Positions 33,458-44,714 of a DNA stretch of 64,000 bases are shown here, piece by piece. The stretch comes from Acidimicrobiia bacterium. Lineage in GTDB: Bacteria; Actinomycetota; Acidimicrobiia; IMCC26256; JAENVU01. Positions within the stretch are counted from its first letter, which is position 1. The number at the start of each line of letters is the position of its first letter. The notes below the pieces were generated by a model. It did not search any database, had not been told where the DNA came from, and was given only the letters and a program-made list of their open reading frames with translations. A program made the translations under genes and the position numbers. The stretch covers positions 94,040 to 158,039 of the forward strand of contig JBBSAM010000005.1 of the NCBI GenBank assembly GCA_038252255.1, in the 5' to 3' direction.

Positions 33458-34366
33458 ATGACCGAGCGCGAGTTCCGGTCGGGTTTCGTCAGCCTCGTGG
33501 GCCGGCCGAACGTGGGGAAGTCCACGCTCGTCAACCAGATCGTCGGGTCGAAGGTCTCGATCGTCTCCAGCCGGCCGCAGACGACGCGCACGCAGATTCG
33601 CGGCGTGCGCACCACCGCCGAGTCGCAGATCGTGCTGCTCGACACCCCGGGGATCCACAAGCCGCGCACGCTGCTCGGCGAACGGTGCAACAGCCGCTCC
33701 GTGCAGACGCTCGCGGAGGTGGATGTCGTGTGCCTCGTGGTCGAGGCGAACGCGGTGATCGGTGGGGGTGACCGGTTCATCTCCGAGCTCGTGCACCAGG
33801 TCCGCACCCCGAGCGTGCTCGTCCTGAACAAGATCGACGTCGCGAGCCACGCCGACGTCGCCGACCATCTCGGGCAGGTGACGGCCGAGCTGGGGGACTT
33901 CGAGGCGTTCGTCCCGCTCTCGGCCCGCACCGGTGAGGGCGTGCCCGCGCTCGTGGCCGAGCTCGAGGCCCGGCTCCCACCGGGTCCGGTGTACTACCCG
34001 GACGGGATCGTGAGCGACCAGCCCGAGACGTCGCTCGTAGCCGAGCTCGTGCGCGAGAAGCTCCTCGCGATCGCTCGCGACGAGCTGCCGCACTCGATCG
34101 TGGTGACGGCCGAGCCGCTCGACGAGGAGGGACCGGACGCGGGGGACGACGACATCCTGCGCTACCGGGTCGTCGTGCGGGTCGAGCGGGACTCCCAGAA
34201 GGGGATCGTGATCGGGAAGGGCGGGACGGTCATCCGCGACGCCGGCACGAAGGCCCGCCAGGAGCTCGAGATCCTCCTCGGCGCCAAGGTCTATCTGGAG
34301 ACCAAGGTCCGGGTGGATCCGGACTGGCAGCGCCGGGCCCACTCTCTCGACCGGCTCGGCTTGTAG
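33458..34366 (+). CDS. era: GTPase Era
   Basis: It has G1 GRPNVGKST, DTPG, NKID, and a KH C-terminal domain. Confidence 0.96.
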   Translation: MTEREFRSGFVSLVGRPNVGKSTLVNQIVGSKVSIVSSRPQTTRTQIRGVRTTAESQIVLLDTPGIHKPRTLLGERCNSRSVQTLAEVDVVCLVVEANAVIGGGDRFISELVHQVRTPSVLVLNKIDVASHADVADHLGQVTAELGDFEAFVPLSARTGEGVPALVAELEARLPPGPVYYPDGIVSDQPETSLVAELVREKLLAIARDELPHSIVVTAEPLDEEGPDAGDDDILRYRVVVRVERDSQKGIVIGKGGTVIRDAGTKARQELEILLGAKVYLETKVRVDPDWQRRAHSLDRLGL

Positions 34367-34486
34367 ACCTTGGCCCCAGAGTTGCCGCTCGCGAATCGGC
34401 CGGGGATAGAGTCGCCCGGCGCGCGTTCGGGGGTCGTTTCGGGGGGCCCTTCAGCTCCCGGCTCCGGTCCGCATAGGGAAGAGGGC

Positions 34487-35581
34487 ATGACGGATCCGCA
34501 GATCGGGAGACGCCTTCGACTGGCCGGTCTCCTCGTCGGCGCCGCCGCCGTCCTCACTGCCTGTGGGAACGACAACGGCCAGAATTCGCTCGATCCCAAA
34601 GGCCCCGCGGCCCAGAAGATCGACAACCTCTTCATCCCGATCCTGATCCTCGCCATCGTCATCGGGGTCGCGGTCATCACTGCGACCGTGGTCTTCGCCC
34701 TCAAGTTCCGCCACCGTGAGGGGAAGCCGGACAACCCGAAGCAGATCCACGGCAGCACACCGCTCGAGATCGGCTGGACGATCGTGCCGGCGCTGATCCT
34801 CGCCGTCGTCGCGGTCCCGACGATCGCCACGATCTTCGACCTCGCGAAGGTGCCGAAGGGTCCCCACGTCCTGCAGGTCCAGGTGGACGGCAAGCAGTGG
34901 TGGTGGCAGTTCCAGCTGCCGAAGCAGCCGATGGTCGACAAGAAGGTCGTCACCAGCACCGAGCTCCACATCCCGATCAAGACGAAGGTGTACCTGTCCG
35001 AGCAGTCGGACAACGTGATCCACTCGTTCTGGGTACCGGAGCTCGCCGGCAAGAAGGACGTCGTGCCGAATCACGACAACCACAACACGATCGAGGCCGA
35101 CAAGCCGGGCACGTTCCTCGGCGCGTGCGCGGAGTACTGCGGTCTTTCGCACGCCGACATGCGGTTCCGCGTCATCGCGCAGACGATGGACGACTGGAAG
35201 GCGTGGTTGGCCAGCGAGCAACAAGGCCCGGCTCAACCGTGGTCCGGCGAGATCAAGGACCTCACCGCCACGAAGTACTCGTGTACCCAATGCCACGTCT
35301 TCGACGACTCGACGAAGGACACGGGCCGCCCGAACCTCACGCACCTGGCCAGCCGCTCCACGTTCGCCGGTGGTACGTACACCGTGAACCGCAAGAACCT
35401 CACCAACTGGGTGATGGACGCGCCGTCGATGATCGCGATGGAGTCGCAGAAGTGCCGTCAGCCACCGGAGACGCCGTGCGTCGGCATGCCGTCGTTCACC
35501 AAGAACACGCCGAAGGGTCAACCCGTGATGACGCGAGCGGATGCGGACACGATCGTGACGTACCTGTTGGGAGAGAAGTAG
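34487..35581 (+). CDS. ctaC: Cytochrome c oxidase subunit II with fused C-terminal cytochrome c domain (caa3-type), lipoprotein signal
   Basis: ATG 34487 follows GGGAAGAGGG. It has the lipobox LTAC, the CuA site CAEYCGLSHADM, and the heme-c motif CTQCH. Confidence 0.9.
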   Translation: MTDPQIGRRLRLAGLLVGAAAVLTACGNDNGQNSLDPKGPAAQKIDNLFIPILILAIVIGVAVITATVVFALKFRHREGKPDNPKQIHGSTPLEIGWTIVPALILAVVAVPTIATIFDLAKVPKGPHVLQVQVDGKQWWWQFQLPKQPMVDKKVVTSTELHIPIKTKVYLSEQSDNVIHSFWVPELAGKKDVVPNHDNHNTIEADKPGTFLGACAEYCGLSHADMRFRVIAQTMDDWKAWLASEQQGPAQPWSGEIKDLTATKYSCTQCHVFDDSTKDTGRPNLTHLASRSTFAGGTYTVNRKNLTNWVMDAPSMIAMESQKCRQPPETPCVGMPSFTKNTPKGQPVMTRADADTIVTYLLGEK

Positions 35582-35600
35582 TGACGAAGGGAGCTCGCCG

Positions 35601-37592
35601 ATGACGGCCGTCCCCGAAGTCCTGGCCCCGCCCCGTCCGCGCCGGCTGGATCTCCTCCACCGGCCGACGCGAACAACTGGGTTCTGGTCGTGGTGGACGA
35701 CGGTCGACCACAAGAAGATCGCGATCCTCTACGGGGGGACCGCCCTCATCTTCTTCCTGATCGCGGGCATCGAGGCGCTGCTGATCCGCCTCCAGCTGGC
35801 CGGGCCGAACGGCACCGTCCTGACCCAGTCGCAGTACAACACGCTGTTCACCATGCACGGGACCACGATGGTCTTCCTCGTGGGAATGCCGCTCGCCGTT
35901 GCGTTCGGCAACTACTTCATCCCGCTGATGATCGGTGCGCGCGACGTCGCGTTCCCCCGGCTGAACATGTTCGGCTTCTGGGCGTTCCTGATCGGGGGCC
36001 TGTTCATCTACTCCGGCTTCGTGCTCGGCGGGGCGCCGAACGGCGGCTGGTTCGGCTACACGCCGCTCACGAGCACCCCGATGAGCCAGGGTGCGCTGCC
36101 CGGCCACGGTCCCGACTTCTGGACCGTCGGGCTGGTGATGCTCGGGTTCGGGTCGGTCACCTCCGGCATCAACTTCATCGTGACGATCCTGAACATGCGC
36201 GCGCCCGGCATGACGCTGATGCGGATGCCCGTGTTCGTGTGGATGATGCTCGTCACCGCGTTCCTGACCGTGTTCGCGATCCCGTGCGTGACCGCGGCCT
36301 TGATCATGGTCTTCTTCGACCGCAACTTCAGCACGAACTTCTTCCTGGCGGCCAACGGCGGTGACCCGTTGCTGTACCAGCATCTCTTCTGGCTGTTCGG
36401 CCACCCCGAGGTGTACATCCTGATCCTGCCGGGCATGGGCATCATCTCCGAGATCCTCCCGGTCTTCGCGCGCAAGCCGCTGTTCGGCTACGCGGTCGTG
36501 GTGTTCTCCGGGATCGCGATCGGGTTCCTCGGCTGGGGTGTGTGGGCGCACCACATGTTCGCGACCGGTCTCGGTCCCGTTGCCGTCTCCGCGTTCAGCC
36601 TGGCGACGATGCTCATCGCCATCCCGACCGGCGTGAAGATCTTCAACTGGCTCGGCACCGTCTGGGGCGGGTCGGTGCGCCTGAAGACCCCGATGCTCTT
36701 CGCGCTCGGGTTCATCGCGATGTTCACGATCGGTGGGCTCTCCGGTGTCACCCACTCGATCGTGCCGGCCGACACGCAGCAGACCGACACGTACTACGTG
36801 GTGGCGCACTTCCACTACGTGCTCTTCGGCGGACTGATCTTCGCGATCTTCGGCGGCTTCTACTACTGGTGGCCGAAGATCTTCGGCAAGATGCTCGACG
36901 AGCGGCTGGGCAAGCTGAACTTCTGGCTCATGCTCATCGGGTTCAACGTCACGTTCTTCCCGATGCACCTGCTGGGCCTCGAAGGTCAGCCGCGCCGCAC
37001 GTACACCTACGCCAAGGGCATGGGCTGGGACAACATCAACCTGCTGGTCTCGATCGGGTCGTTCATCATCGCCGCCTCGGTGCTGGTGTTCCTCGTCAAC
37101 GTGGTCCTCACGACCATTCGGGGCGAGCGAGCGCCGGCCGACCCGTGGGACGGCCGCACACTCGAGTGGTCGATCCCCACGCCGGTGCCCGAGTACAACT
37201 TCGCCGAGATCCCGGTGGTCCACGCCCGTGACGACTTCTGGGCCCGCAAGTACACCGAGGACGACCAGGGCCGCCTGGTGCGGTTGCCCGCAGGTGGCTC
37301 GGACAGCGGCACGACGGGTGCGGTCGCGGTAGCCGAGATCGAGCCGGACTCGGACTCCGGCGCCGGTGAGGGCGGCGACCTCGGTGGGCACGGCGAAGAG
37401 CCCGGTGGGACCGGTGGCCACGGCTTCCACATGCCGTCACCGTCCTTCTACCCGCTCATCCTCACCCTCGGTCTCCCGATCCTCGGGTACGCCGCGGTGT
37501 TCAAGAGCCCCTTCCTCGCGATCCCCGGGTTCATCGTCCTGCTGTTCGGCATGTACGGCTGGGCCATCGAGCCCGGCACGGCGGAGGACTGA
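35601..37592 (+). CDS. ctaD: Cytochrome c oxidase subunit I (with C-terminal two-helix extension)
   Basis: It has typical heme-copper oxidase sequence (WFFGHPEVYILILP-type: LFWLFGHPEVYILILPGMG). It is 663 aa. A Gly/Asp/Ser linker is followed by an extra hydrophobic module. Confidence 0.95.
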   Translation: MTAVPEVLAPPRPRRLDLLHRPTRTTGFWSWWTTVDHKKIAILYGGTALIFFLIAGIEALLIRLQLAGPNGTVLTQSQYNTLFTMHGTTMVFLVGMPLAVAFGNYFIPLMIGARDVAFPRLNMFGFWAFLIGGLFIYSGFVLGGAPNGGWFGYTPLTSTPMSQGALPGHGPDFWTVGLVMLGFGSVTSGINFIVTILNMRAPGMTLMRMPVFVWMMLVTAFLTVFAIPCVTAALIMVFFDRNFSTNFFLAANGGDPLLYQHLFWLFGHPEVYILILPGMGIISEILPVFARKPLFGYAVVVFSGIAIGFLGWGVWAHHMFATGLGPVAVSAFSLATMLIAIPTGVKIFNWLGTVWGGSVRLKTPMLFALGFIAMFTIGGLSGVTHSIVPADTQQTDTYYVVAHFHYVLFGGLIFAIFGGFYYWWPKIFGKMLDERLGKLNFWLMLIGFNVTFFPMHLLGLEGQPRRTYTYAKGMGWDNINLLVSIGSFIIAASVLVFLVNVVLTTIRGERAPADPWDGRTLEWSIPTPVPEYNFAEIPVVHARDDFWARKYTEDDQGRLVRLPAGGSDSGTTGAVAVAEIEPDSDSGAGEGGDLGGHGEEPGGTGGHGFHMPSPSFYPLILTLGLPILGYAAVFKSPFLAIPGFIVLLFGMYGWAIEPGTAED

Positions 37593-37595
37593 TCC

Positions 37596-38231
37596 ATGGC
37601 GCAGGCCACTCTCCCTGTCCCGAGCGGTTCGCAGCACGACGACCACGGCCACGGGCACGGTCACCCGGAAACGACGACGGGCACCACGAACACCAAGCTC
37701 GCGATGTGGGTGTTCCTCTCTTCCGAGTGCCTGTTCTTCGGTGCCTTCATCGCGACGTACCTGCTGTACCGCGGTCGGAGCTTGAAGGGCCCGACCCCGA
37801 AGGACGTCTACAACATCCCGTTCACCTCGGTGACGTCGTTCATCCTGCTGATGAGCTCGCTGACGATGGTGCTCGCGCTGGCCGCGATCCAGCGCGGCGA
37901 CCACCGGCGGTTCCGCGTCTGGCTCATCGCCACCGCGCTCTTCGGCCTCACCTTCATCTCCGGTCAGATCTACGAGTTCACGGAGTTCTACCGCGAGGGC
38001 CTCTCCCTCTCCACGAACACGTTCGGCTCGAGCTTCTTCGTCCTCACCGGAATCCACGGCATGCACGTGACCGTCGGCATCATCTGGCTCCTGTCCCTGT
38101 GGGGCCTCTCGATGCAGGGCAAGATCGAGGTGCAGCACTCCGAGAAGGTGGAGATCGCGGGCCTCTACTGGCACTTCGTGGACGTGGTGTGGATCGTGAT
38201 CTTCACCGTCGTCTACCTGATCCCGGCGTAG
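37596..38231 (+). CDS. ctaE: Cytochrome c oxidase subunit III
   Basis: It is 211 aa with 5 TM segments and subunit III-like sequence (FFVLTGIHGMHV, YWHFVDVVW). Confidence 0.92.
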   Translation: MAQATLPVPSGSQHDDHGHGHGHPETTTGTTNTKLAMWVFLSSECLFFGAFIATYLLYRGRSLKGPTPKDVYNIPFTSVTSFILLMSSLTMVLALAAIQRGDHRRFRVWLIATALFGLTFISGQIYEFTEFYREGLSLSTNTFGSSFFVLTGIHGMHVTVGIIWLLSLWGLSMQGKIEVQHSEKVEIAGLYWHFVDVVWIVIFTVVYLIPA

Positions 38232-38238
38232 GGGAGTC

Positions 38239-38334
38239 ATGAGCGCAGCGGGAACATCAAGCGGCTACGGCCGAGGAACCAGCGGAGCGTGGCCCGAGCG
38301 GCCCGGGCCGCAGGGCCGAGAGCGGGAGTCATGA
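38239..38334 (+). CDS. 31-codon mini-ORF / leader element, copy A (MSAAGTSSGYGRGTSGAWPERPGPQGRERES)
   Basis: ATG 38239 follows GGGGAG. Its TGA overlaps the next gene's ATG (ATGA). The 3' 54 nt are 47/54 identical to 44661-44714. Coding status is unproven. Confidence 0.35.
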   Translation: MSAAGTSSGYGRGTSGAWPERPGPQGRERES

Positions 38335-38729
38335 ACGGCGACGACCAGGCACTGCTTCCGGGGACCGTGGCGGAGCGGGAGGACGAGCTGGAGCACGGCC
38401 TCTCGGTGATCTCGCCCGACGAGGTGCCGCTGCTGCCGGGGGAGGAGCGGGCGCACCCGTCGCCGTTCCAGTACGTGATCATCTTCGTGATCCTGTGCGT
38501 GATCACCGCCCTCGAGATCGGCTTGTACTACCTCGAGGACGACCTGCCCTGGAGCCTGATCGTCGGGCTGCTCCTCGTCATGGCGCTCATCAAGTTCGTG
38601 ATGGTCGCGAGCTGGTTCATGCACCTGCGCACGGACAAGCCCATCTTCCGGCGCTTCTTCATCATGGGCGGCGTCGCGGCCATCACCCTCTTCACGATCG
38701 TCCTGACGACGTTCCGCGTCTTCGACTGA
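38331..38729 (+). CDS. Cytochrome c oxidase subunit IV family protein (prokaryotic COX4 type)
   Basis: It has three hydrophobic helices (YVIIFVILCVITALEIGLYY..., LLLVMALIKFVMVASWFMHL). I preferred the ATG at 38331. GTG 38289 is an alternative start. Confidence 0.8.
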   Translation: MNGDDQALLPGTVAEREDELEHGLSVISPDEVPLLPGEERAHPSPFQYVIIFVILCVITALEIGLYYLEDDLPWSLIVGLLLVMALIKFVMVASWFMHLRTDKPIFRRFFIMGGVAAITLFTIVLTTFRVFD

Positions 38730-38733
38730 CTGC

Positions 38734-39597
38734 TTGACTGACGTGATGGCCGCGCAGTTCCCTGCCTGGCAGCCGCACCCCGACGTTCTGCTGCTCGTCG
38801 GCCTGGTCGTCGCTGGCTACACGATCGCGCTCACCAGGATCGGTCCCCGGTACCTCCCGGGCGGCGCGGCGGTGGCGACGCGCTTCCAGGTCGTGTGCTT
38901 CGGGCTCGGCGCGTTCGGGATGCTGCTCGCGGCCGAGTGGCCGATGCACGACGTCGCCGAGGACTCCATGTACAGCGTCCACATGGTGCAGCACCTGTTG
39001 CTCACCATGGTGGTGGCGCCGCTGCTCCTGCTCGGCACTCCCGGCTGGCTGGCCCGCTGGCTGCTCCGCCCGGCGTGGTTCTTCCGGTCGGTCCGCTGGC
39101 TGTCCCGATTCGTCCCGGCCCTGATTCTGTTCAACGTCGTCATCGTGCTGGTCCACTGGCCGGCCGTCGTGGATCTGACCCTCCGTTCCGGCCTGGCCCA
39201 CTTCTTCGCCCACGCCGTGTTGCTGCTATCAGCGTTCATCATCTGGATGCCGATCGTGAGCCCGCTGCCGGAGATCCCGCGCCTCGTGGCGCCCCTGCGG
39301 ATGGCCTTCCTGTTCCTCCAATCCGTGGTGCCGACCATCCCGGCCTCGTTTCTCACTTTCGGGACCCACCCGCTGTATCGTCGCTACGAGTCGTTGCCGA
39401 AGCTGTGGGGAATCTCCGCGCTCGACGATCAGCTCATCGCCGGCCTCATCATGAAGATCGGGGCGGGACTGCTGCTCTGGGCGCTGATCGCGGTGATCTT
39501 CTTCCGGTGGGCAGCTGCTGAAGAGCGCCGGAACCGACCCGGCCCCGGAGTCCGGGACCTGGATCGGGAGCTGACCGAGATGGGACTGCGCGCGTAG
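38734..39597 (+). CDS. ctaG: Cytochrome c oxidase assembly factor CtaG (caa3_CtaG family)
   Basis: It is a polytopic protein with VHMVQHLLLTMVVAPLL typical of caa3_CtaG. The start is ambiguous (TTG 38734, GTG 38743, ATG 38746). Confidence 0.82.
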   Translation: MTDVMAAQFPAWQPHPDVLLLVGLVVAGYTIALTRIGPRYLPGGAAVATRFQVVCFGLGAFGMLLAAEWPMHDVAEDSMYSVHMVQHLLLTMVVAPLLLLGTPGWLARWLLRPAWFFRSVRWLSRFVPALILFNVVIVLVHWPAVVDLTLRSGLAHFFAHAVLLLSAFIIWMPIVSPLPEIPRLVAPLRMAFLFLQSVVPTIPASFLTFGTHPLYRRYESLPKLWGISALDDQLIAGLIMKIGAGLLLWALIAVIFFRWAAAEERRNRPGPGVRDLDRELTEMGLRA

Positions 39598-40581
39598 ATG
39601 ACCGACGAAGCAACGCCAGGGAAAAGCGAGAGCGGCGAGCCGGAGACCCCGGCCACGCCGGAGACGCCCGACGCGCCCGAGTCGCCGGCGGCTGACGCGC
39701 CGGCCGCGGCGGAATCCACCGCGACGGAATCCAGCGCGACGGAACCCAGCGCGGCGGAACCGGAAGCTGCGGTCCCGGCCCGGCGCGAAGAGGGTGCCGT
39801 TCCGGCGGCCGTCGAGATGGGGCCCGCGGCCGACCCGAGAGCGGAGGCCCGCAAGACCCGGATCGTGCTCCCGTTCCTGCTCCCGATCGCTGCGATCGGA
39901 GTCGTCGCGTTCTATTCGTTCAACATCTCGCGGATCTTCATCGCCGCGGCGGAGAGCGACACCACGGCGGCGGTGATCATCGCCGCGGGCATCACGCTCT
40001 CGATCCTCATCGGTGCCACCGTGATCGCCGCGCTCCCGGACATCCGCACCTCGTCACTCGTCGTCGGTCTCTCCGGAGTCATGCTCGTCGTGATGCTCGC
40101 GGGCTCACTCGTCCTGGGGACGAGCCAACCGAAGACCGAGGCGGCCGCGGGCTACGTCGAGCCCGCCGGCAAGGCGATCAACACGCTCGAGATCGATGCG
40201 CTCCCGGAGCTGAAGTTCCAGGCGACGAAGTTCAACGTCCCCGGCGGGATCAACCTCGTCAAGTACGTCGACAAGGGCGGCACGCACACCCTGGTCTTCG
40301 ACAACAACAAGGTGCCGGGCTTCGAGCTCCAAGTACCGAACGGGCAGAGCGCCGCGAAGGTCGACCTCACGGCCGGTCAGACCTACACGGTGTACTGCAC
40401 GATTCCCGGCCACCGGGCCGCCGGCATGCAGGCCGACATCATCGTCGGCCCGAACGGTGGGGCCCCGGAGCCGGGAACGCAGAGCCCGACGCAGACGACC
40501 GGCCCGGGCACCACGCAGACGACGGTCGCGCCCGGCACGAGCAACACCGACAAGGCGTCGCAGGCGAGCACGGGGTCCTGA
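39598..40581 (+). CDS. Membrane-anchored type-1 (blue) copper protein / cupredoxin with disordered N- and C-terminal tails
   Basis: It has an acidic Pro/Ala/Glu-rich N-terminus, 3 TM helices, and a cupredoxin domain with ligands H (GGTHTLVF) and C-x4-H-x4-M (YCTIPGHRAAGM). The tail is Thr/Gln/Pro-rich. Confidence 0.8.
   Translation: MTDEATPGKSESGEPETPATPETPDAPESPAADAPAAAESTATESSATEPSAAEPEAAVPARREEGAVPAAVEMGPAADPRAEARKTRIVLPFLLPIAAIGVVAFYSFNISRIFIAAAESDTTAAVIIAAGITLSILIGATVIAALPDIRTSSLVVGLSGVMLVVMLAGSLVLGTSQPKTEAAAGYVEPAGKAINTLEIDALPELKFQATKFNVPGGINLVKYVDKGGTHTLVFDNNKVPGFELQVPNGQSAAKVDLTAGQTYTVYCTIPGHRAAGMQADIIVGPNGGAPEPGTQSPTQTTGPGTTQTTVAPGTSNTDKASQASTGS
39706..39765 (+). repeat. In-frame 4 x 15-nt tandem repeat (AAEST/ATESS/ATEPS/AAEPE) in the cupredoxin N-terminal tail
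   Basis: The units are GCGGCGGAATCCACC / GCGACGGAATCCAGC / GCGACGGAACCCAGC / GCGGCGGAACCGGAA. Confidence 0.85.
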
Positions 40582-40584
40582 TCG

Positions 40585-40986
40585 ATGCTGAAGCCGGCAA
40601 CGAAGCGTTTCGTCGCGTCCGCCGCCCTCGCGCTGGGGCTGGTCGTGGCGCTCGCGGCGTGCGGAGGCGGCGGCTCCGGCGGTAGTGGGTACAAGCCGCC
40701 GACCGGCCCGGCCATCGCGACGGTGAAGCTCGAGTCGGGCAACACCTTCTTCAAGCCGAACAAGGTGACGGCTCCCGCGGGGATCATCAAGATCCAGGTG
40801 ACGAACATCGAGAGCGGCATCCACGACCTCGTGATCCGGAACATTCCCGGCTTCCAGGTCGAGGTGAGCGGCGAGGGTGACGTCGAGTCCCAGAAGGTGG
40901 AGCTCGCGAAGGGGAAGTACGAGTTCTATTGCACGATCCCCGGCCATGAAGAGGCAGGGATGAAGGGCACGCTCACCGTCTCGTGA
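40585..40986 (+). CDS. Lipoprotein cupredoxin (type-1 copper protein)
   Basis: It has the lipobox LAAC plus a Gly-rich tether. The ligands are H (GIHDLV) and C-x4-H-x4-M (YCTIPGHEEAGM). It is 133 aa. Confidence 0.82.
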   Translation: MLKPATKRFVASAALALGLVVALAACGGGGSGGSGYKPPTGPAIATVKLESGNTFFKPNKVTAPAGIIKIQVTNIESGIHDLVIRNIPGFQVEVSGEGDVESQKVELAKGKYEFYCTIPGHEEAGMKGTLTVS

Positions 40987-41711
40987 TCGACGGGATCGAT
41001 CCCGGTCGCGTTCCTCGTCACGTCGCGATCGTGATGGACGGCAACGGCCGTTGGGCGCAGAAGCGCGGTCTCAAGCGGACGGAAGGGCACGCGGCGGGAG
41101 AAGAGGCGCTGTTCGACGCGGTCGAGGGCGCGCTCGAGCTCGGGTTGAAGTGGATGACGGTCTACGCGTTCTCGACCGAGAACTGGCGGCGCCCGCTCGA
41201 CGAGGTCCGGTTCCTCATGCGGTTCAACGAGTCGCTGCTGCTCCGCCGCCGGGACGACCTGAACGAGCGGGGCGTGCGGGTGCGCTTCATCGGCCGGCGC
41301 GGCGGGCGCGTGCCGAAGCGGGTGGTGAGGCACATCGAGGACACCGAGGCGCTGACCGCGCGGAATCGGCGGATGACGCTCACGTTCGCGTTCAACTACG
41401 GCGGGCGGGCCGAGCTCACCGACGCGATGCAAGCCATCGCCCACGAGGTCTCGGCGCGACGGCTCAAGCCGGACCAGATCTCGGATCGCACGATCGCCAA
41501 GCACCTCTACGCCCCGGACATGCCCGACCCCGACCTGATGGTGCGAACGTCGGGGGAGTACCGCATCTCGAACTACCTCCTGTGGCAGAGCGCGTACTCG
41601 GAGTTCCTGTTCACCGACGTCCTCTGGCCCGACTTCCGTCGCGAGCATCTCTTCGACGCCGTGCGCGAGTTCCAGCGGAGGGACCGTCGCTTCGGCGCGG
41701 TCGACACCTGA
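40983..41711 (+). CDS. uppS: Isoprenyl transferase / undecaprenyl diphosphate synthase
   Basis: It has HVAIVMDGNGRWA and the SNYLLWQSAYSEF motif. The GTG overlaps the upstream stop. Confidence 0.94.
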   Translation: MIDGIDPGRVPRHVAIVMDGNGRWAQKRGLKRTEGHAAGEEALFDAVEGALELGLKWMTVYAFSTENWRRPLDEVRFLMRFNESLLLRRRDDLNERGVRVRFIGRRGGRVPKRVVRHIEDTEALTARNRRMTLTFAFNYGGRAELTDAMQAIAHEVSARRLKPDQISDRTIAKHLYAPDMPDPDLMVRTSGEYRISNYLLWQSAYSEFLFTDVLWPDFRREHLFDAVREFQRRDRRFGAVDT

Positions 41712-41729
41712 CGTGGCTGACCGGATCGG

Positions 41730-42291
41730 CTAACGCGGGTCGTCGCGGTCGAGGTTCCAGTGCCGCGACGCCGACGTCAGCCAGTCGGAGTCGCCGGCGG
41801 GGATGACGGCAAACCTGGTGATGACGCGCTGGCCGCCCTCGCCGTCGCCGTAGAGCATGCTGACCGTGAGGCTCTCGCGGTTCGTGATGGCCTCGACGAT
41901 CGCGTCGTGGTCGGGATCGTTCGTGTCGCGGATCGCGCCCTGCCAGAAGCCGGTGTCGCCGGCCGGGATGTTCGACGCGCCAGCCGCGCGGCACCGCGAG
42001 CCCGGTCCCCACGTTGCGCACCCCGATGATGAGGAAGACCATCCCGTCGTTCTGCTCGGCGACCGCGCGGCCACCGGCGAGCCGGAACCACCGCAGGTCC
42101 TGGAAGAGGACCTTCTCCTCCGGGTCGCCGAGGCGGGAGGGCACGAGCACCGGTCGGAGGCCGGCCAGCAGCGCGCGTTCCGCGACGCGAGCCGATCGGT
42201 TCGACGACCGGACCGCGCTGAAGGTCGCTGCCGCGAGCACGAGGGTCCCGCCCGCGGTGGCGAGCGACGAGATGGTGGTCCAATCGGCCAT
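41730..42291 (-). pseudogene. Frameshifted hypothetical membrane-anchored protein
   Basis: The N-terminal 100 or so codons are coding-like in the frame of ORF 41611..42291 (MADWTTISSLATAGGTLVLAAATF...IGVRNVGTGLAV). The C-terminal 80 or so codons are coding-like in the frame of ORF 41730..42299 (SNIPAGDTGFWQGAIRD...NLDRDDPR). The switch lies near 41975-42000. Confidence 0.5.
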
Positions 42292-42372
42292 GGGCGCAAC
42301 CTACGTGCGCTCCGGACATTTCCGTGCGCCCGAGACGGCTTCGACTTGCACGGTTGTAGTTACACTGTGGGC

Positions 42373-43092
42373 GTGCCGGGGCTGTATCGGGATCAGGGAG
42401 TCGTGCTCCGGACATGGAAGCTCGGCGAGACCGACAGGATCGTCACCTTCCTGACCCAGGGCCACGGCAAGGTCCGGGCGGTGGCCAAGGGCGTTCGCAA
42501 GAGCGGGAGCCGGTTCGGCGCCCGGCTCGAGCCCACCAGTCACATCGCGCTGCAGTGCTACCGGGGCCGCGAGCTCGACGTCGTCACCCAGGTCGAGACG
42601 ATCGACGCCAACCGGGCGCTGCGGGAGAGCTACGCGTGCCTCACCCATGCGGTGCCGATGCTCGAGGCGGTCGACCAGGTCGCCCAGGAACGCGAGCCCG
42701 CGCCGGCGTTGTACCGGATGCTCGTCGGGGCGCTGCGGACCCTGAGCGACCGCCCGTCACCGGTGGTGACCCCGGCGTTCTTCTGGAAGCTGCTGAGCCT
42801 CGAGGGATTCCATCCGTACCTCGACCTGTGCGTCCGTTGCGGCGAGGCCGGGCCCTTCATCGCCTTCGACCTCGTCGAGGGCGGGGTCCTCTGCGCGGGG
42901 TGCGGCCGTCTCGGAGGATGCCGGGTGGAGCCGGAGGCACTCGGCTTCCTCGGCCAGATCGTGGGCGGTGGGGTGCACCGGGCGATCACCGAGCCTCCGG
43001 CGGCCGAGCACGTGCACGAGATCGAGCGTCTCGGTGTCCTCGCGCTCGAGTACCACTCCGAACGCCGCCTCCGCTCAGCCGCCTTGCTCTGA
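42373..43092 (+). CDS. recO: DNA repair protein RecO
   Basis: GTG 42373 gives VPGLYRDQGVVLRTWKLGETDRIVTFLT... It has the Cys4 motif (CVRCG...CAGC). TACACT lies 6 nt upstream. The upstream part of track ORF 41857 was rejected. Confidence 0.88.
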   Translation: MPGLYRDQGVVLRTWKLGETDRIVTFLTQGHGKVRAVAKGVRKSGSRFGARLEPTSHIALQCYRGRELDVVTQVETIDANRALRESYACLTHAVPMLEAVDQVAQEREPAPALYRMLVGALRTLSDRPSPVVTPAFFWKLLSLEGFHPYLDLCVRCGEAGPFIAFDLVEGGVLCAGCGRLGGCRVEPEALGFLGQIVGGGVHRAITEPPAAEHVHEIERLGVLALEYHSERRLRSAALL

Positions 43093-43293
43093 GGATCCCC
43101 GGCGATCACTCTGAAGATCTCCGGCGGCCGAATGTTGGACCGTGATTGCCGCGCGGCCGCCGGCGGCCTCTATCTCCCGCGTGTTGTTTGTGTCATTACC
43201 CGTCGGAATCACGAGTTTTCGCACCAACGGCGGGCACGGTCGGCGAGCCAATGCTTCGGGCCGAATTGGGCCGCCCGACTACCCTGAACGGCT

Positions 43294-44622
43294 GTGGCCC
43301 GTCCCGACTTGATGGACCGCGTCGTCAACCTCGCGAAACGACGTGGCCTGGTCTTCCCCTCCAGTGAGATCTATGGCGGATTCCGTTCGACGTGGGATTA
43401 CGGACCCCTCGGCGTGCTCTTGAAGCGCAACGTCAAGGAGGCGTGGTGGCGGTCCATGGTCCAGCTCCGCGACGACGTCGTCGGCCTCGACGCCGCCATC
43501 CTCATGGCGCCCAGGGTCTGGGAGGCCAGCGGGCACCTGAAGACCTTCACGGACCCCCTCGTGGACTGCCGGAGCTGCCAGGAGCGCTTCCGGGCGGACC
43601 AGCTGCCCGATTCCGGCGCGTGCCCCAACTGCGGGGCCAAGGGCTCGTTCACGGAAGCCCGGAACTTCAACCTGATGTTCAAGACGTTCGTGGGCCCGGT
43701 GGAGGACGACACGTCCGTCGCCTACCTGCGCCCGGAGACGGCGCAGGGCATCCTCGTCAACTTCAAGAACGTGCAGACCACGACGCGCAAGAAGCCACCG
43801 TTCGGAATCGCGCAGATCGGCAAGTCGTTCCGCAACGAGATCACCCCGGGAAACTTCGTCTTTCGCACCCGTGAGTTCGAACAGATGGAGATGGAGTACT
43901 TCGTCCCGCCCGAAGACGCGCCGCACTGGTACGAGTACTGGTGCCAGCAGCGCTTCCACTGGTACCAGGACCTCGGAATTCCCGAGGAGATGCTGCGGCT
44001 CCGACCGCACGATCCCGACGAGCTCTCGCACTACAGCGTCGCGACGAGCGACGTGGAGTTCGACTACCCGTGGGGCTGGGGCGAGCTCGAGGGCATCGCG
44101 AACCGCACGGACTACGACCTCAAGCAGCACAGCGAGTTCTCCGGCGAGGACCTCTCCTACTTCGACCAGGAGGGCGACCGCCACTACGTCCCGTACGTGA
44201 TCGAGCCCGCCGCCGGCGCCGACCGCGCCACCCTCGCCTTTCTCCTCGCGGCCTACCACGAGGACGAAGCGCCGACCGCGGACGGCAAGGTCGAGAAGCG
44301 GACGGTGCTCCGCCTCGACCACCGGCTCGCGCCGAACAAGGTCGCGGTCCTGCCGCTGTCGAAGAACGAGAAGCTCGTTCCTACTGCCGGCGAGGTCGCC
44401 GCGGATCTCCGGCGGCACTTCCAGACCGACGTCGACGTCGCGGGGGCGATCGGCCGCCGCTACCGCCGCCAGGACGAGGTCGGTACCCCGTACTGCGTCA
44501 CGATCGACTTCGACACCCTCGACGATCGGGCGGTGACGGTGCGCGATCGCGACTCGATGGGCCAGGACCGGGTGTCGCTCGACCGCCTCGTCAACCATCT
44601 GCGGGAGCTGTTGCCCACATGA
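43294..44622 (+). CDS. glyQS: Glycyl-tRNA synthetase (class II, dimeric type)
   Basis: It has [17 protein letters not shown]... and class II motifs. ATG 43312 is an alternative start. Confidence 0.93.
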
Positions 44623-44714
44623 GTGAAGCGGACACCATTCCGATCCTCCGCCGTGTGTCGAGCGGAGCGGGGCCCGAGCGGCCCGGACCGAAGGGACGAG
44701 AGCGGAAGCGATGA
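44619..44714 (+). CDS. 31-codon mini-ORF / leader element, copy B ([31 protein letters not shown])
   Basis: Its ATG overlaps the glyQS stop (ATGA) and its TGA overlaps the next ATG (ATGA). It has the same 96-nt length as copy A. Coding status is unproven. Confidence 0.35.

What the first reader, a model, noticed from the sequence alone, without database searches (positions are those of the whole stretch)
38239..38335. A 96-nt, 31-codon mini-ORF/leader between ctaE and the subunit IV gene has a same-length paralogue 6.3 kb away
Copy A has its ATG at 38239, right after GGGGAG, and its TGA at 38332-38334 overlaps the subunit IV ATG as ATGA. Copy B (44619-44714) is also exactly 96 nt. An ungapped alignment gives 68/96 identities by my count, rising to 47/54 over the 3' part (38281-38334 versus 44661-44714). 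The peptides are MSAAGTSSGYGRGTSGAWPERPGPQGRERES and [31 protein letters not shown], sharing MS.A...SGA.PERPGP.GRER. Of the 7 differences in the conserved part, 2 are synonymous in this frame. The conserved part holds three GAGCGG motifs and a GGCCCG/CGGGCC hairpin (imperfect in copy B). It also supplies both the purine-rich SD-like GAGAGCGGRAG and the start codon of the downstream gene. The two downstream genes (an oxidase subunit and a J-like/RDD protein) are unrelated, so this behaves like a portable translation-initiation leader. It could be a conserved micro-protein, a Pro-rich coupling or regulatory uORF, or a REP/MITE-like element.
Basis: seen in the sequence. Interest (0 to 1): 0.7.

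Follow-up and report, generated by a model that had tools for sequence, protein, structure and literature searches.

The report
Mobile MIRU-like repeat between operon genes
The two 96-base "mini-genes" are copies of a widespread mobile repeat that inserts at the junctions between operon genes and carries a small relay reading frame, probably so the next gene is still translated; this kind of element is known from mycobacteria (MIRUs), but this sequence family appears undescribed.

Summary
Copies A (38239-38334) and B (44619-44714) share 68/96 bases and 47/54 in the 3' core.

They are not a private pair. A core pattern hit at least 120 metagenome contigs, where copies occur singly or in head-to-tail arrays. 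A covariance model scores A at 42.8 bits and B at 40.9 bits, and nothing else in the window scores.

Full-length members are about 86-92 nt. They form four helices, three of them with compensatory changes.

Copy A is a recent 92-nt insertion. Contigs whose CtaF is 92% and 85% identical have the empty site TAGGGGAGTCATGAACGG. The window has that site plus the insert, flanked by the repeat GGGAGTCATGA.

Elements mostly point the same way as both neighbouring genes (50 versus 10). They usually begin with RTGAG and end with RTGA on the downstream start codon. Their lengths keep a phase of 2 mod 3 (36 of 45).

The conserved core is read in all three frames across members, so the peptide is not conserved, but the open, phased ORF is. 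This is the architecture described for mycobacterial MIRUs. There is no detectable sequence similarity to an M. tuberculosis MIRU.

Verdict: a new member of a known kind. The translational-coupling relay is inferred, not shown. The insertion mechanism is unknown.

The parts
38239..38334 (+). Copy A: 31-codon relay ORF (ATG 38239, TGA 38332-38334) between ctaE and ctaF
   Evidence: Covariance model R1 scores 38253-38329 at 42.8 bits, E 4e-7.
38243..38334 (+). The 92 nt absent from the empty site of relatives. The boundary can be slid anywhere within the 11-nt repeat, so 38232-38323 is equally valid.
   Evidence: L171 and L172 read ...CCGGCGTAGGGGAGTCATGAACGGCGACGACC. The window with these 92 nt removed matches L171 at 118/128 positions across the junction.
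38232..38242 (+). Left copy of the direct repeat GGGAGTCATGA (native ctaF ribosome-binding site plus start codon)
38324..38334 (+). Right copy of the direct repeat GGGAGTCATGA. It holds the working ctaF start codon at 38331.
   Evidence: CtaF homologues are 131-132 aa and start MNGDDQ, MSGDDQ or MSDDQ.
38290..38304 (+). Hairpin H2 of copy A: (T)GGCC-CGAGC-GGCC(C)
   Evidence: Family consensus structure. One member, L130:9702, carries a compensatory GGGGC/GCCCC variant.
38305..38317 (+). Hairpin H3 of copy A: GGGCC-GCA-GGGCC, with one G.G mismatch
   Evidence: In the family, H3 pairs 73-85, 74-84 and 77-81 covary: CG:53 with UA:6, GC:43 with CG:18, and CG:42 with GC:6.
38318..38330 (+). Conserved GAGAGCGG box plus the 5-nt spacer GAGTC before the start codon
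   Evidence: The start codon lies 5-6 nt after GAGAGCGG in 40 elements, and 39 of those read RTGA.
44619..44714 (+). Copy B: 31-codon relay ORF. Its ATG overlaps the upstream tRNA-synthetase stop (ATGA at 44619-44622), and its TGA overlaps the DnaJ/RDD ATG (44711-44714).
   Evidence: R1 scores 44620-44709 at 40.9 bits, E 1e-6. The site is empty in L003-L008 and filled in L002.
44670..44684 (+). Hairpin H2 of copy B: GGGCC-CGAGC-GGCCC, five perfect pairs
44685..44697 (+). Decayed hairpin H3 of copy B: GGACC-GAA-GGGAC, 3 of 5 pairs. The intact version in L081 is GGACC-GAA-GGTCC.
44698..44710 (+). GAGAGCGG box plus the 5-nt spacer AAGCG
37596..38231 (+). ctaE (COX3), the gene upstream of copy A
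   Evidence: Pfam PF00510, E 3.8e-20
38331..38729 (+). ctaF (prokaryotic oxidase subunit IV), the gene downstream of copy A
   Evidence: Pfam PF03626. Identical to P0001, 132 aa.
43294..44622 (+). Class-II aminoacyl-tRNA synthetase gene upstream of copy B. It is probably glycyl-tRNA synthetase, but the specificity was not tested.
   Evidence: Pfam tRNA-synt_2b and HGTP_anticodon
44711..45802 (+). DnaJ-domain/RDD protein gene downstream of copy B
   Evidence: Pfam DnaJ at residues 4-56, plus RDD

Best explanation
Copies A and B are two independent insertions of a short (about 55-100 nt, typically 86-92 nt) repeat element. The element is non-autonomous and apparently mobile, and is carried by Acidimicrobiia-related bacteria.

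It lands at gene junctions, most often exactly on a start codon followed by A (RTGA). That tetranucleotide then sits at both ends of the element.

The element carries its own small ORF. The ORF begins at the 5' RTG, which often overlaps the stop codon of the upstream gene. It ends at the TGA that overlaps the start codon of the downstream gene. A ribosome that translates the relay ORF therefore melts the element's GC-rich hairpins, terminates on the downstream start codon and re-initiates there. In this way the insertion does not break expression of the operon.

What is shown:
- family membership;
- dispersal and tandem arrays;
- filled and empty sites;
- orientation bias;
- conserved secondary structure;
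- phase-locked lengths;
- a stop-free coupling frame;
- non-conservation of the peptide.

What is inferred:
- that the ORF is actually translated and couples the two genes;
- that the hairpins serve mobilisation or an RNA function. The mobilising enzyme is unknown.
For: Family:
Several hits form head-to-tail arrays.
- Model R1 finds 116 copies in 100 of those contigs, including copies that do not match the search pattern.
- In the window it finds only A and B. The next hit scores 18.8 bits with E 0.03.

Structure, on 62 full-length members:
- 81.7% of cells are paired, against 71.3% after shuffling.
- 151 cells changed on both sides of a pair, against 52.7 +/- 5.1 in shuffles (0 of 500 shuffles reach the observed value) and at most 32 in slid controls.

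Mobility:
- The ctaE-ctaF site is empty in L171, L172, L176, L002 and L170, and filled in the window. The flanks match L171 at 118/128 positions.
- The same junction is filled independently in the distant relative L007 but empty in its sister L004.
- The ctaF-ctaG junction is filled in L173-175 and empty in L172, although all four encode the identical CtaF protein.
- The B site is empty in L003-L008.

Coupling architecture:
- Flanking genes are co-oriented with the element in 50 cases and oppositely oriented in 10.
- The start codon lies 5-6 nt after GAGAGCGG in 40 elements, and 39 of those read RTGA.
- The upstream gene's stop is the TGA of the 5' RTGA in at least 15 of 50 co-oriented cases.
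- The distance from the 5' RTG to the 3' RTG is 2 mod 3 in 36 of 45 elements. This holds across 11 different lengths from 56 to 101 nt. Changes in H3 length are offset by changes in the spacer.
- Internal stop codons occur in 1 of 41 elements in the coupling frame, against 6 and 17 of 41 in the other two frames.
- L002's copy B gained 12 nt and lost hairpin H2, yet kept the ORF and its phase.

Peptide: the core is read in three different frames among members.

Precedent: MIRUs are described as inserting at start codons, with an internal ORF coupled at -4 spacing (PMC12548453). They also show filled and empty sites with tetranucleotide direct repeats and are transcribed within polycistronic mRNA (PMC3184786).
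Against: - There is no expression, Ribo-seq or reporter data, so translation of the relay ORF is inferred.
- In copy A the 11-nt duplication also recreates ctaF's own ribosome-binding site (GGGAG-TC-ATG). Coupling may therefore be dispensable at that site.
- Copies A and B fold no better than shuffled sequence (z +0.47 and -0.19). Both lack the family's first hairpin, so any structure-dependent role is weak in these two copies.
- About a third of family members lie in other contexts: opposite orientation, convergent or divergent gene pairs, directly after a stop codon without a start codon, or in frame inside ctaG in L121. The relay ORF is therefore not a universal feature.
- The element as a whole is not depleted of stop codons on its sense strand.
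- The phase statistics count related copies, which are not independent events.
- The family alignment was collected with a pattern that fixes H2 and the outer pairs of H3.
Confidence: 0.8

Rival explanations
1. It is a conserved 31-aa micro-protein, encoded at two loci, that acts as a peptide.
For: Both copies are open ORFs of identical length with a start codon. They share SGA.PERPGP.GRER, and 2 of the 7 core differences are synonymous.
Against: The same core nucleotides are translated as RGPSGP in 31 members, PERPGP in 6 and ARAAR in 4. In the +1 frame, 4 of the 7 A/B differences would be synonymous (my reading). Contigs whose CtaF is 85-92% identical lack copy A. L002 replaced PERPGP with a different sequence at the B site. 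Neither peptide is on record as a called gene.
Confidence: 0.03
2. It is a cis-acting structured RNA whose main role is regulatory, such as a leader, attenuator, processing site or mRNA stabiliser. On this view its spread reflects recruitment of a useful module rather than selfish mobility.
For: Three helices (P0, H1, H3) show strong covariation. The element has a strong bias towards the transcribed orientation. It sits inside operons.
Against: It precedes unrelated genes. Presence or absence varies among near-identical strains, and the copy number of tandem arrays varies. Some members lie in the opposite orientation or inside an ORF. The window copies have lost most of the structure. No Rfam 15 family matches, either at the gathering threshold on the window or at E <= 1 on 20 carrier contigs. 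There is no T-run that would make a terminator.
Confidence: 0.1
3. It is a REP- or MITE-type DNA element whose hairpins are recognition sites for a trans-acting transposase. On this view the ORF, the RTGA ends and the phase are by-products of target choice and are never translated.
For: The family is dispersed and forms tandem copies. It shows filled and empty sites and short direct repeats with a modal length of 4. Its hairpins are GC-rich. The orientation bias could follow the replication strand, as it does for IS200/IS605-type elements (my own knowledge).
Against: There are no terminal inverted repeats (observed score 5.2, shuffled 5.2). Arrays are head-to-tail rather than the alternating orientation seen in BIMEs and REPINs. 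Target choice alone does not explain why length variants stay at 2 mod 3 through offsetting indels, or why only the coupling frame is stop-free. No partner gene has been identified.
Confidence: 0.07

Closest known systems
MIRUs (mycobacterial interspersed repetitive units; Supply et al. 1997, Mol Microbiol 26:991, as described in PMC12548453 and PMC3184786)
   Same: Units are 40-100 bp and occur dispersed or in tandem arrays. They lie between co-transcribed genes in the same orientation. An internal ORF has ends that overlap the neighbouring genes. Insertion is at start codons with a tetranucleotide direct repeat, and filled and empty sites exist. Unit lengths are 2 mod 3: 77 nt in the M. tuberculosis senX3-regX3 array I fetched, and 59 to 101 nt here. 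Both have internal GC-rich inverted repeats.
   Different: There is no detectable sequence or structure similarity. R1 gives 3.1 bits on the MIRU array. The local alignment score is 19.4 against 20.3 +/- 2.2 for shuffles. The host lineage differs: Acidimicrobiia-related MAGs and soil metagenomes rather than Mycobacterium. This family has a well-defined architecture of helices supported by covariation. It also has members without a start codon and at least one in-frame insertion inside a gene.
REP / BIME / REPIN elements with RAYT transposases
   Same: Both are short, GC-rich, hairpin-forming intergenic repeats. Both are abundant, lie close to stop codons and sit within operons. REPs are known to affect mRNA stability (PMC3184786).
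   Different: REPs are 21-65 nt single palindromes. They are usually arranged in alternating orientation and carry no ORF. This family has about 90-nt units in head-to-tail arrays, is biased towards the sense orientation and carries a phased ORF. No RAYT association was tested.
Rickettsia palindromic elements (RPEs; my own knowledge, Ogata et al. 2000)
   Same: Both are structured repeats that can sit in frame inside protein-coding genes and be translated as a peptide insert. L121 carries an intact element as a 31-codon in-frame insertion in ctaG.
   Different: RPEs are mainly intragenic. Here intragenic copies are the exception and the intercistronic relay ORF is the rule.
Engineered bicistronic designs (a short leader ORF whose stop overlaps the start of the gene of interest; mentioned in PMC12548453)
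   Same: The logic is the same. A short upstream ORF delivers a ribosome to an overlapping start codon and removes the effect of local RNA structure.
   Different: Those are synthetic, single-copy and non-mobile.

Membership tests
MIRU-type intercistronic repeat (architectural class) | Unit of 40-100 bp, dispersed in the genome and also found in tandem arrays of variable copy number | tested here: met
   At least 120 contigs were hit. Arrays have 2-3 units with periods of 43-90 nt. There are 116 R1 hits.
MIRU-type intercistronic repeat (architectural class) | Located between genes of an operon, in the same orientation as those genes | tested here: met
   Flank strand calls give 50 co-oriented, 10 opposite, 9 divergent and 8 convergent. 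Both window copies are co-oriented.
MIRU-type intercistronic repeat (architectural class) | Internal ORF whose start and stop overlap the stop and start of the neighbouring genes (-4 or -1 spacing), with unit length 2 mod 3 | tested here: met
   39 of the 40 start codons that lie 5-6 nt after the box read RTGA. 36 of 45 elements are in phase. The upstream stop falls at the 5' RTGA in at least 15 of 50 cases. Copy B has ATGA at both ends. The M. tuberculosis control has 77-nt units ending TGATGA.
MIRU-type intercistronic repeat (architectural class) | Filled versus empty sites in relatives, with a short (tetranucleotide) direct repeat | tested here: met
   Empty sites were found at ctaE-ctaF, ctaF-ctaG and the B junction. 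The modal direct repeat is 4 nt (RTGA). Copy A has 11 nt and copy B has 4 nt.
MIRU family proper (homology) | Sequence similarity to the mycobacterial MIRU consensus | tested here: not met
   On the senX3-regX3 MIRU array of M. tuberculosis (L177), R1 gives 3.1 bits and nhmmer gives no hit. The alignment score is no better than for shuffles.
MIRU family proper (homology) | Transcribed as part of the polycistronic mRNA | not testable with these tools
   No transcriptome is available for the source organism.
REP/BIME (RAYT-associated) | Single short palindrome, typically paired in inverted orientation (REPIN/BIME) | tested here: not met
   Units have several helices, are about 90 nt long and form head-to-tail arrays.
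REP/BIME (RAYT-associated) | Co-occurrence with a RAYT (Y1 transposase) gene flanked by the repeats | not tested
   This needs whole genomes. Only loci of about 20 kb or less were available.
MITE | Terminal inverted repeats | tested here: not met
   Comparing the 5' 25 nt with the reverse complement of the 3' 25 nt gives a mean score of 5.2, equal to the shuffled value of 5.2 +/- 1.2.
MITE | Target-site duplication of fixed length | tested here: inconclusive
   Direct repeats range from 3 to 42 nt with a mode of 4. Some long ones are partial tandem units.
Curated RNA family (Rfam 15) | Match to a covariance model | tested here: not met
   The window at gathering threshold gave only 3 tRNAs. 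Twenty carrier contigs at E <= 1 gave no match.
Conserved small protein | Peptide conserved in one reading frame across members, with coding-type substitutions | tested here: not met
   Three frames are used: 31, 6 and 4 members.

The most novel reading that the evidence does not exclude
This is a previously undescribed and widespread family of structured mobile elements in uncultured soil and sediment Actinobacteria. It evolved the MIRU strategy independently: it targets start and stop codon junctions (RTGA) and carries a phase-locked relay ORF. If so, 'insertion made harmless by translational coupling' would be a general, convergent lifestyle for bacterial repeats. The lack of inverted termini, the variable direct repeats and the codon-junction targeting would point to an insertion mechanism that has not been characterised.
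Probability: 0.45. Interest if true: 0.72.

Novelty: new member of a known kind. Interest (0 to 1): 0.58.

Why it matters
1. It gives comparative, sequence-only support for an idea that rests on one family (MIRUs): a mobile repeat can neutralise its own insertion into an operon by carrying a translationally coupled relay ORF. The supporting signals are offsetting indels that keep the phase, a stop-free coupling frame and free drift of the peptide.

2. It is an annotation hazard. Gene callers can extend the downstream gene into the element, as with the window ORF from GTG 38289. The same thing happens with M. tuberculosis RegX3, which is recorded at 245-347 aa instead of 227 aa. Callers may also report spurious 'conserved' small proteins.

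3. Presence or absence of elements and the copy number of arrays differ between near-identical strains (L172 versus L173-175). These loci could therefore serve as VNTR-like markers for uncultured Acidimicrobiia.

4. The element is a natural, portable bicistronic coupler that works in GC-rich genomes.

Tried and rejected
- Exact look-up of both 31-aa peptides as called genes: not on record.
- The listing of cluster members, tried for organism names: returned no names.
- Rfam at the gathering threshold on the window and at E <= 1 on 20 carrier contigs: nothing.
- Plasmid collection searched with blastn using the consensus element: no match.
- Full-text search for the core sequence strings: only chance primer-like hits.
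- Search for literature on MIRU-like elements in other Actinobacteria: nothing relevant.
- Homology to MIRUs: rejected.
- The idea that the ORF is just the N-terminus of the downstream genes in another frame (GTG 38289): rejected. CtaF homologues start at the ATG equivalent, and the DnaJ domain starts at residue 4.
- G.U versus A.C counts to decide between RNA and DNA structure: inconclusive, 20 versus 45, with the second figure inflated by an alignment shift.
- Hypothesis that all three sense frames are kept open: rejected, with 41 sense stops against 39 expected.
- A regex attempt to test stop-codon (TAG/TGA) duplication in the members without a start codon: the pattern was poorly designed and gave no usable result.
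- Thermodynamic stability of copies A and B: no better than shuffles.

Full report
**1. The observation**

- Copy A runs from ATG 38239 to TGA 38332-38334. It lies 7 nt after the ctaE stop codon, and its stop overlaps the ctaF start codon as ATGA.
- Copy B runs from 44619 to 44714. It has ATGA overlaps at both ends, with the stop of a class-II aminoacyl-tRNA synthetase gene and with the start of a DnaJ/RDD gene.
- Identity is 68/96 overall and 47/54 in the 3' part. Random 96-mers from this 69% G+C window give 27.6 +/- 5.2.
- A degenerate 38-nt core pattern occurs only at these two places, with 0 expected by chance.
- Small corrections are listed in the observation check.

**2. The two copies belong to a large family**

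Several contigs hold head-to-tail arrays of 2-3 units.
- Conservation extends about 55 nt upstream of this core and stops 4-6 nt after GAGAGCGG.
- A typical full-length unit reads RTGAGCGAGCGTC-GCGAGCCGGGTATCCCGGCGAGC-AGCGAGCGGGGCCCGAGCGGCCCGGCGCGCAGCGCCGAGAGCGG-N5-6-RTGA.
- I aligned 62 full-length members (A2) and specified four helices: an outer stem P0 enclosing hairpin H1, then hairpins H2 and H3.
- Of all cells, 81.7% pair, against 71.3% after shuffling. In 151 cells both partners changed, against 52.7 +/- 5.1 in shuffles (0 of 500 shuffles reach this) and at most 32 when the 3' partners are slid.
- H2 and the outer pairs of H3 were fixed by my search pattern, so they cannot count as evidence. 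One copy found only by the model has the compensatory H2 variant GGGGC/GCCCC.
- The MFE fold of one full-length member (L072) reproduces the specified helices. Folds of two others (L111, L007) recover H1 and some of the other helices, but their energies are not unusual for such GC-rich sequence.
- The covariance model R1 scores copy A at 42.8 bits and copy B at 40.9 bits. Nothing else in the window exceeds 18.8 bits.
- Both window copies lack H1, and their H3 stems carry mismatches.
- A's core is closer to several metagenome copies (92-96% identity) than to B (87%). The two are therefore independent family members, not a local duplication.

**3. The element is, or recently was, mobile**

- *ctaE-ctaF junction.* Contigs L171 and L172, whose CtaF proteins are 92% and 85% identical to the window's, read ...CCGGCGTAGGGGAGTCATGAACGGCGAC... 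The window is this sequence plus 92 nt, flanked by the 11-nt repeat GGGAGTCATGA. With the insert removed, the window matches L171 at 118/128 positions across the junction.
- L176, L002 and L170 are also empty at this junction.
- A distant relative, L007, carries a full-length element (81.7 bits) at the same junction, while its sister L004 is empty.
- *ctaF-ctaG junction.* L173-175 carry a short family member (29.6 bits). L172 is empty there, although all four encode the identical CtaF protein. L002 has a decayed copy at that junction.
- *Copy B site.* The site is filled in L002 and empty in L003-L008. In those relatives the synthetase gene ends at or just before the dnaJ ATG, as an ATGA overlap in L004, L005 and L007.
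- *Inside ctaG.* In L121 an intact element (80.4 bits) sits in frame inside ctaG and adds about 31 residues to the protein.
- *End repeats.* Among single elements the terminal direct repeat is most often 4 nt (RTGA) and ranges from 3 to 42 nt. The longest are partial tandem units.
- There are no terminal inverted repeats.

**4. Evidence for a relay ORF rather than a protein**

- I inferred the strand of flanking genes from third-codon-position GC content. Elements are co-oriented with both neighbours in 50 cases and opposite in 10. Another 9 lie between divergent genes and 8 between convergent genes.
- Of 81 elements or arrays with a co-oriented downstream gene, 40 have the start codon 5-6 nt after GAGAGCGG. 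In 39 of those it reads RTGA.
- In at least 15 of 50 co-oriented cases the upstream gene stops at the TGA of the 5' RTGA.
- For 45 elements bounded by RTGAG and RTGA, the distance between the two start codons is 2 mod 3 in 36. That is the phase needed for the relay stop to overlap the next start.
- The phase holds across lengths of 56, 59, 62, 65, 74, 83, 86, 89, 92, 95 and 101 nt. A 2-nt change in H3 is offset by a 1-nt change in the spacer.
- Internal stop codons occur in 1 of 41 elements in the relay frame, against 6 and 17 of 41 in the other two frames.
- The encoded peptide is not conserved. The invariant core is read as RGPSGP in 31 members, as PERPGP in 6 (including both window copies) and as ARAAR in 4.
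- In L002, copy B gained 12 nt that destroy H2, yet the ORF stays open and in phase.
- Together these results indicate selection on the existence and phase of the ORF, not on its product.

**5. How the two window copies probably work (inferred)**

- At the B site the ancestral junction was probably a direct stop/start overlap, as in L004, L005 and L007.
- The insertion turned that single overlap into a chain: synthetase stop/relay start (ATGA), then the relay ORF, then relay stop/dnaJ start (ATGA).
- Ribosomes should therefore still be handed to dnaJ by termination and re-initiation.
- At the A site the duplication also recreates ctaF's native GGGAG-TC-ATG ribosome-binding site, so ctaF may be translated both by coupling and on its own.
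- No expression data exist for this organism.

**6. Comparison with known elements**

- The architecture matches published descriptions of MIRUs. They are reported to insert at start codons with an internal ORF coupled at -4 spacing, which is thought to limit the effect on expression (PMC12548453, citing Supply et al. 1997).
- MIRUs are also described as 40-100 bp, at 40-50 copies per genome, co-transcribed with their operon, with filled and empty sites, tetranucleotide direct repeats and GC-rich internal inverted repeats (PMC3184786).
- As a control I fetched the M. tuberculosis senX3-regX3 spacer. It holds three 77-nt units, each with an ORF ending in TGATGA.
- Neither R1 (3.1 bits), nhmmer nor a shuffle-controlled local alignment (19.4 versus 20.3 +/- 2.2) detects similarity between that MIRU and this family.
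- The family therefore works like a MIRU but is not a sequence member of the MIRU family.
- It has no Rfam match and no match in plasmids. Its core sequence does not appear in the searchable literature.
- R1 found nothing in about 730 kb of non-Acidimicrobiia control loci.
- Several carrier contigs encode proteins 48-75% identical to window proteins. This points to relatives of the window's organism, an Acidimicrobiia-related MAG.

**7. Limits**

- The family alignment was collected with a fixed core pattern.
- Copies are related by descent, so the counts are not independent events.
- Strand calls for the flanking genes are heuristic.
- It is unresolved whether the conserved structure acts in RNA or in single-stranded DNA.
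- The mobilising activity and the taxonomic range are unknown.

**8. Verdict**

The finding is real and more than chance. The micro-protein reading is rejected. The element is a new, apparently undescribed member of a known kind.

Noticed in passing
window 33458-44622: The whole cta operon lies between era (33458-34366) and recO (41857-43092) plus a class-II tRNA synthetase gene (43294-44622). The operon comprises ctaC (assigned by position only; no domain search run), ctaD, ctaE, ctaF, ctaG and a cupredoxin gene, at 34370-40581. Relatives L002-L008 show the same ctaE-ctaF position relative to the DnaJ/RDD gene.
   Followed up: partly
L173:453-537, L174:443-527, L175:443-527 versus L172:799-812; also L002:4449-4541: The ctaF-ctaG junction is a second insertion site for the same repeat family. 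It is filled in three contigs and empty in a fourth, although all four encode the identical CtaF protein. L002 holds a decayed copy there, and the window is empty (38729-38734).
   Followed up: yes
L121:1236-1341 (minus strand): A structurally intact element (80.4 bits) lies in frame inside the ctaG coding sequence. It adds about 31 residues (AETNARGAGTLRRSEPGPERPGAVGAESGKA) between conserved parts of CtaG. This resembles Rickettsia palindromic elements.
   Followed up: partly
L170:1501-2190: In ENA contig ERZ25039530:contig_2200, the 3' part of ctaE (PF00510 COX3 match) and ctaF are called as one 229-aa protein (P0017). There is no in-frame stop at ...CCCGCAGTAAGGACG.... This may be a real fusion or an indel in a long-read assembly.
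   Followed up: no
L007:6026-6165: A partial element with only hairpin H1 (R1 34.7 bits) is flanked by a direct repeat of about 20 nt, GTGCC(C)GGAGGGCGGGACGG. It may lie inside an ORF.
   Followed up: no
L177:555-793 and proteins P0122-P0127: M. tuberculosis RegX3 is recorded in the protein database at 245-347 aa as well as at 227 aa, so some gene calls start upstream of the 227-aa start, towards the 77-nt MIRU array. The window ORF from GTG 38289, which starts inside copy A, poses the same annotation hazard.
   Followed up: partly
alignment A2, columns 16-17/50-51 and 26-27/43-44: The element is built from repeated GAGCG and GCGAGC words. In many members GCGAGC pairs with itself through tandem G.A/A.G mismatches. 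Other members have Watson-Crick pairs at the same positions.
   Followed up: partly
L105 (JAABUN010000089.1), 13.4 kb: This contig holds six model-detected copies of a short (about 59-nt) subfamily within about 10 kb, so some genomes carry the family at very high density.
   Followed up: no
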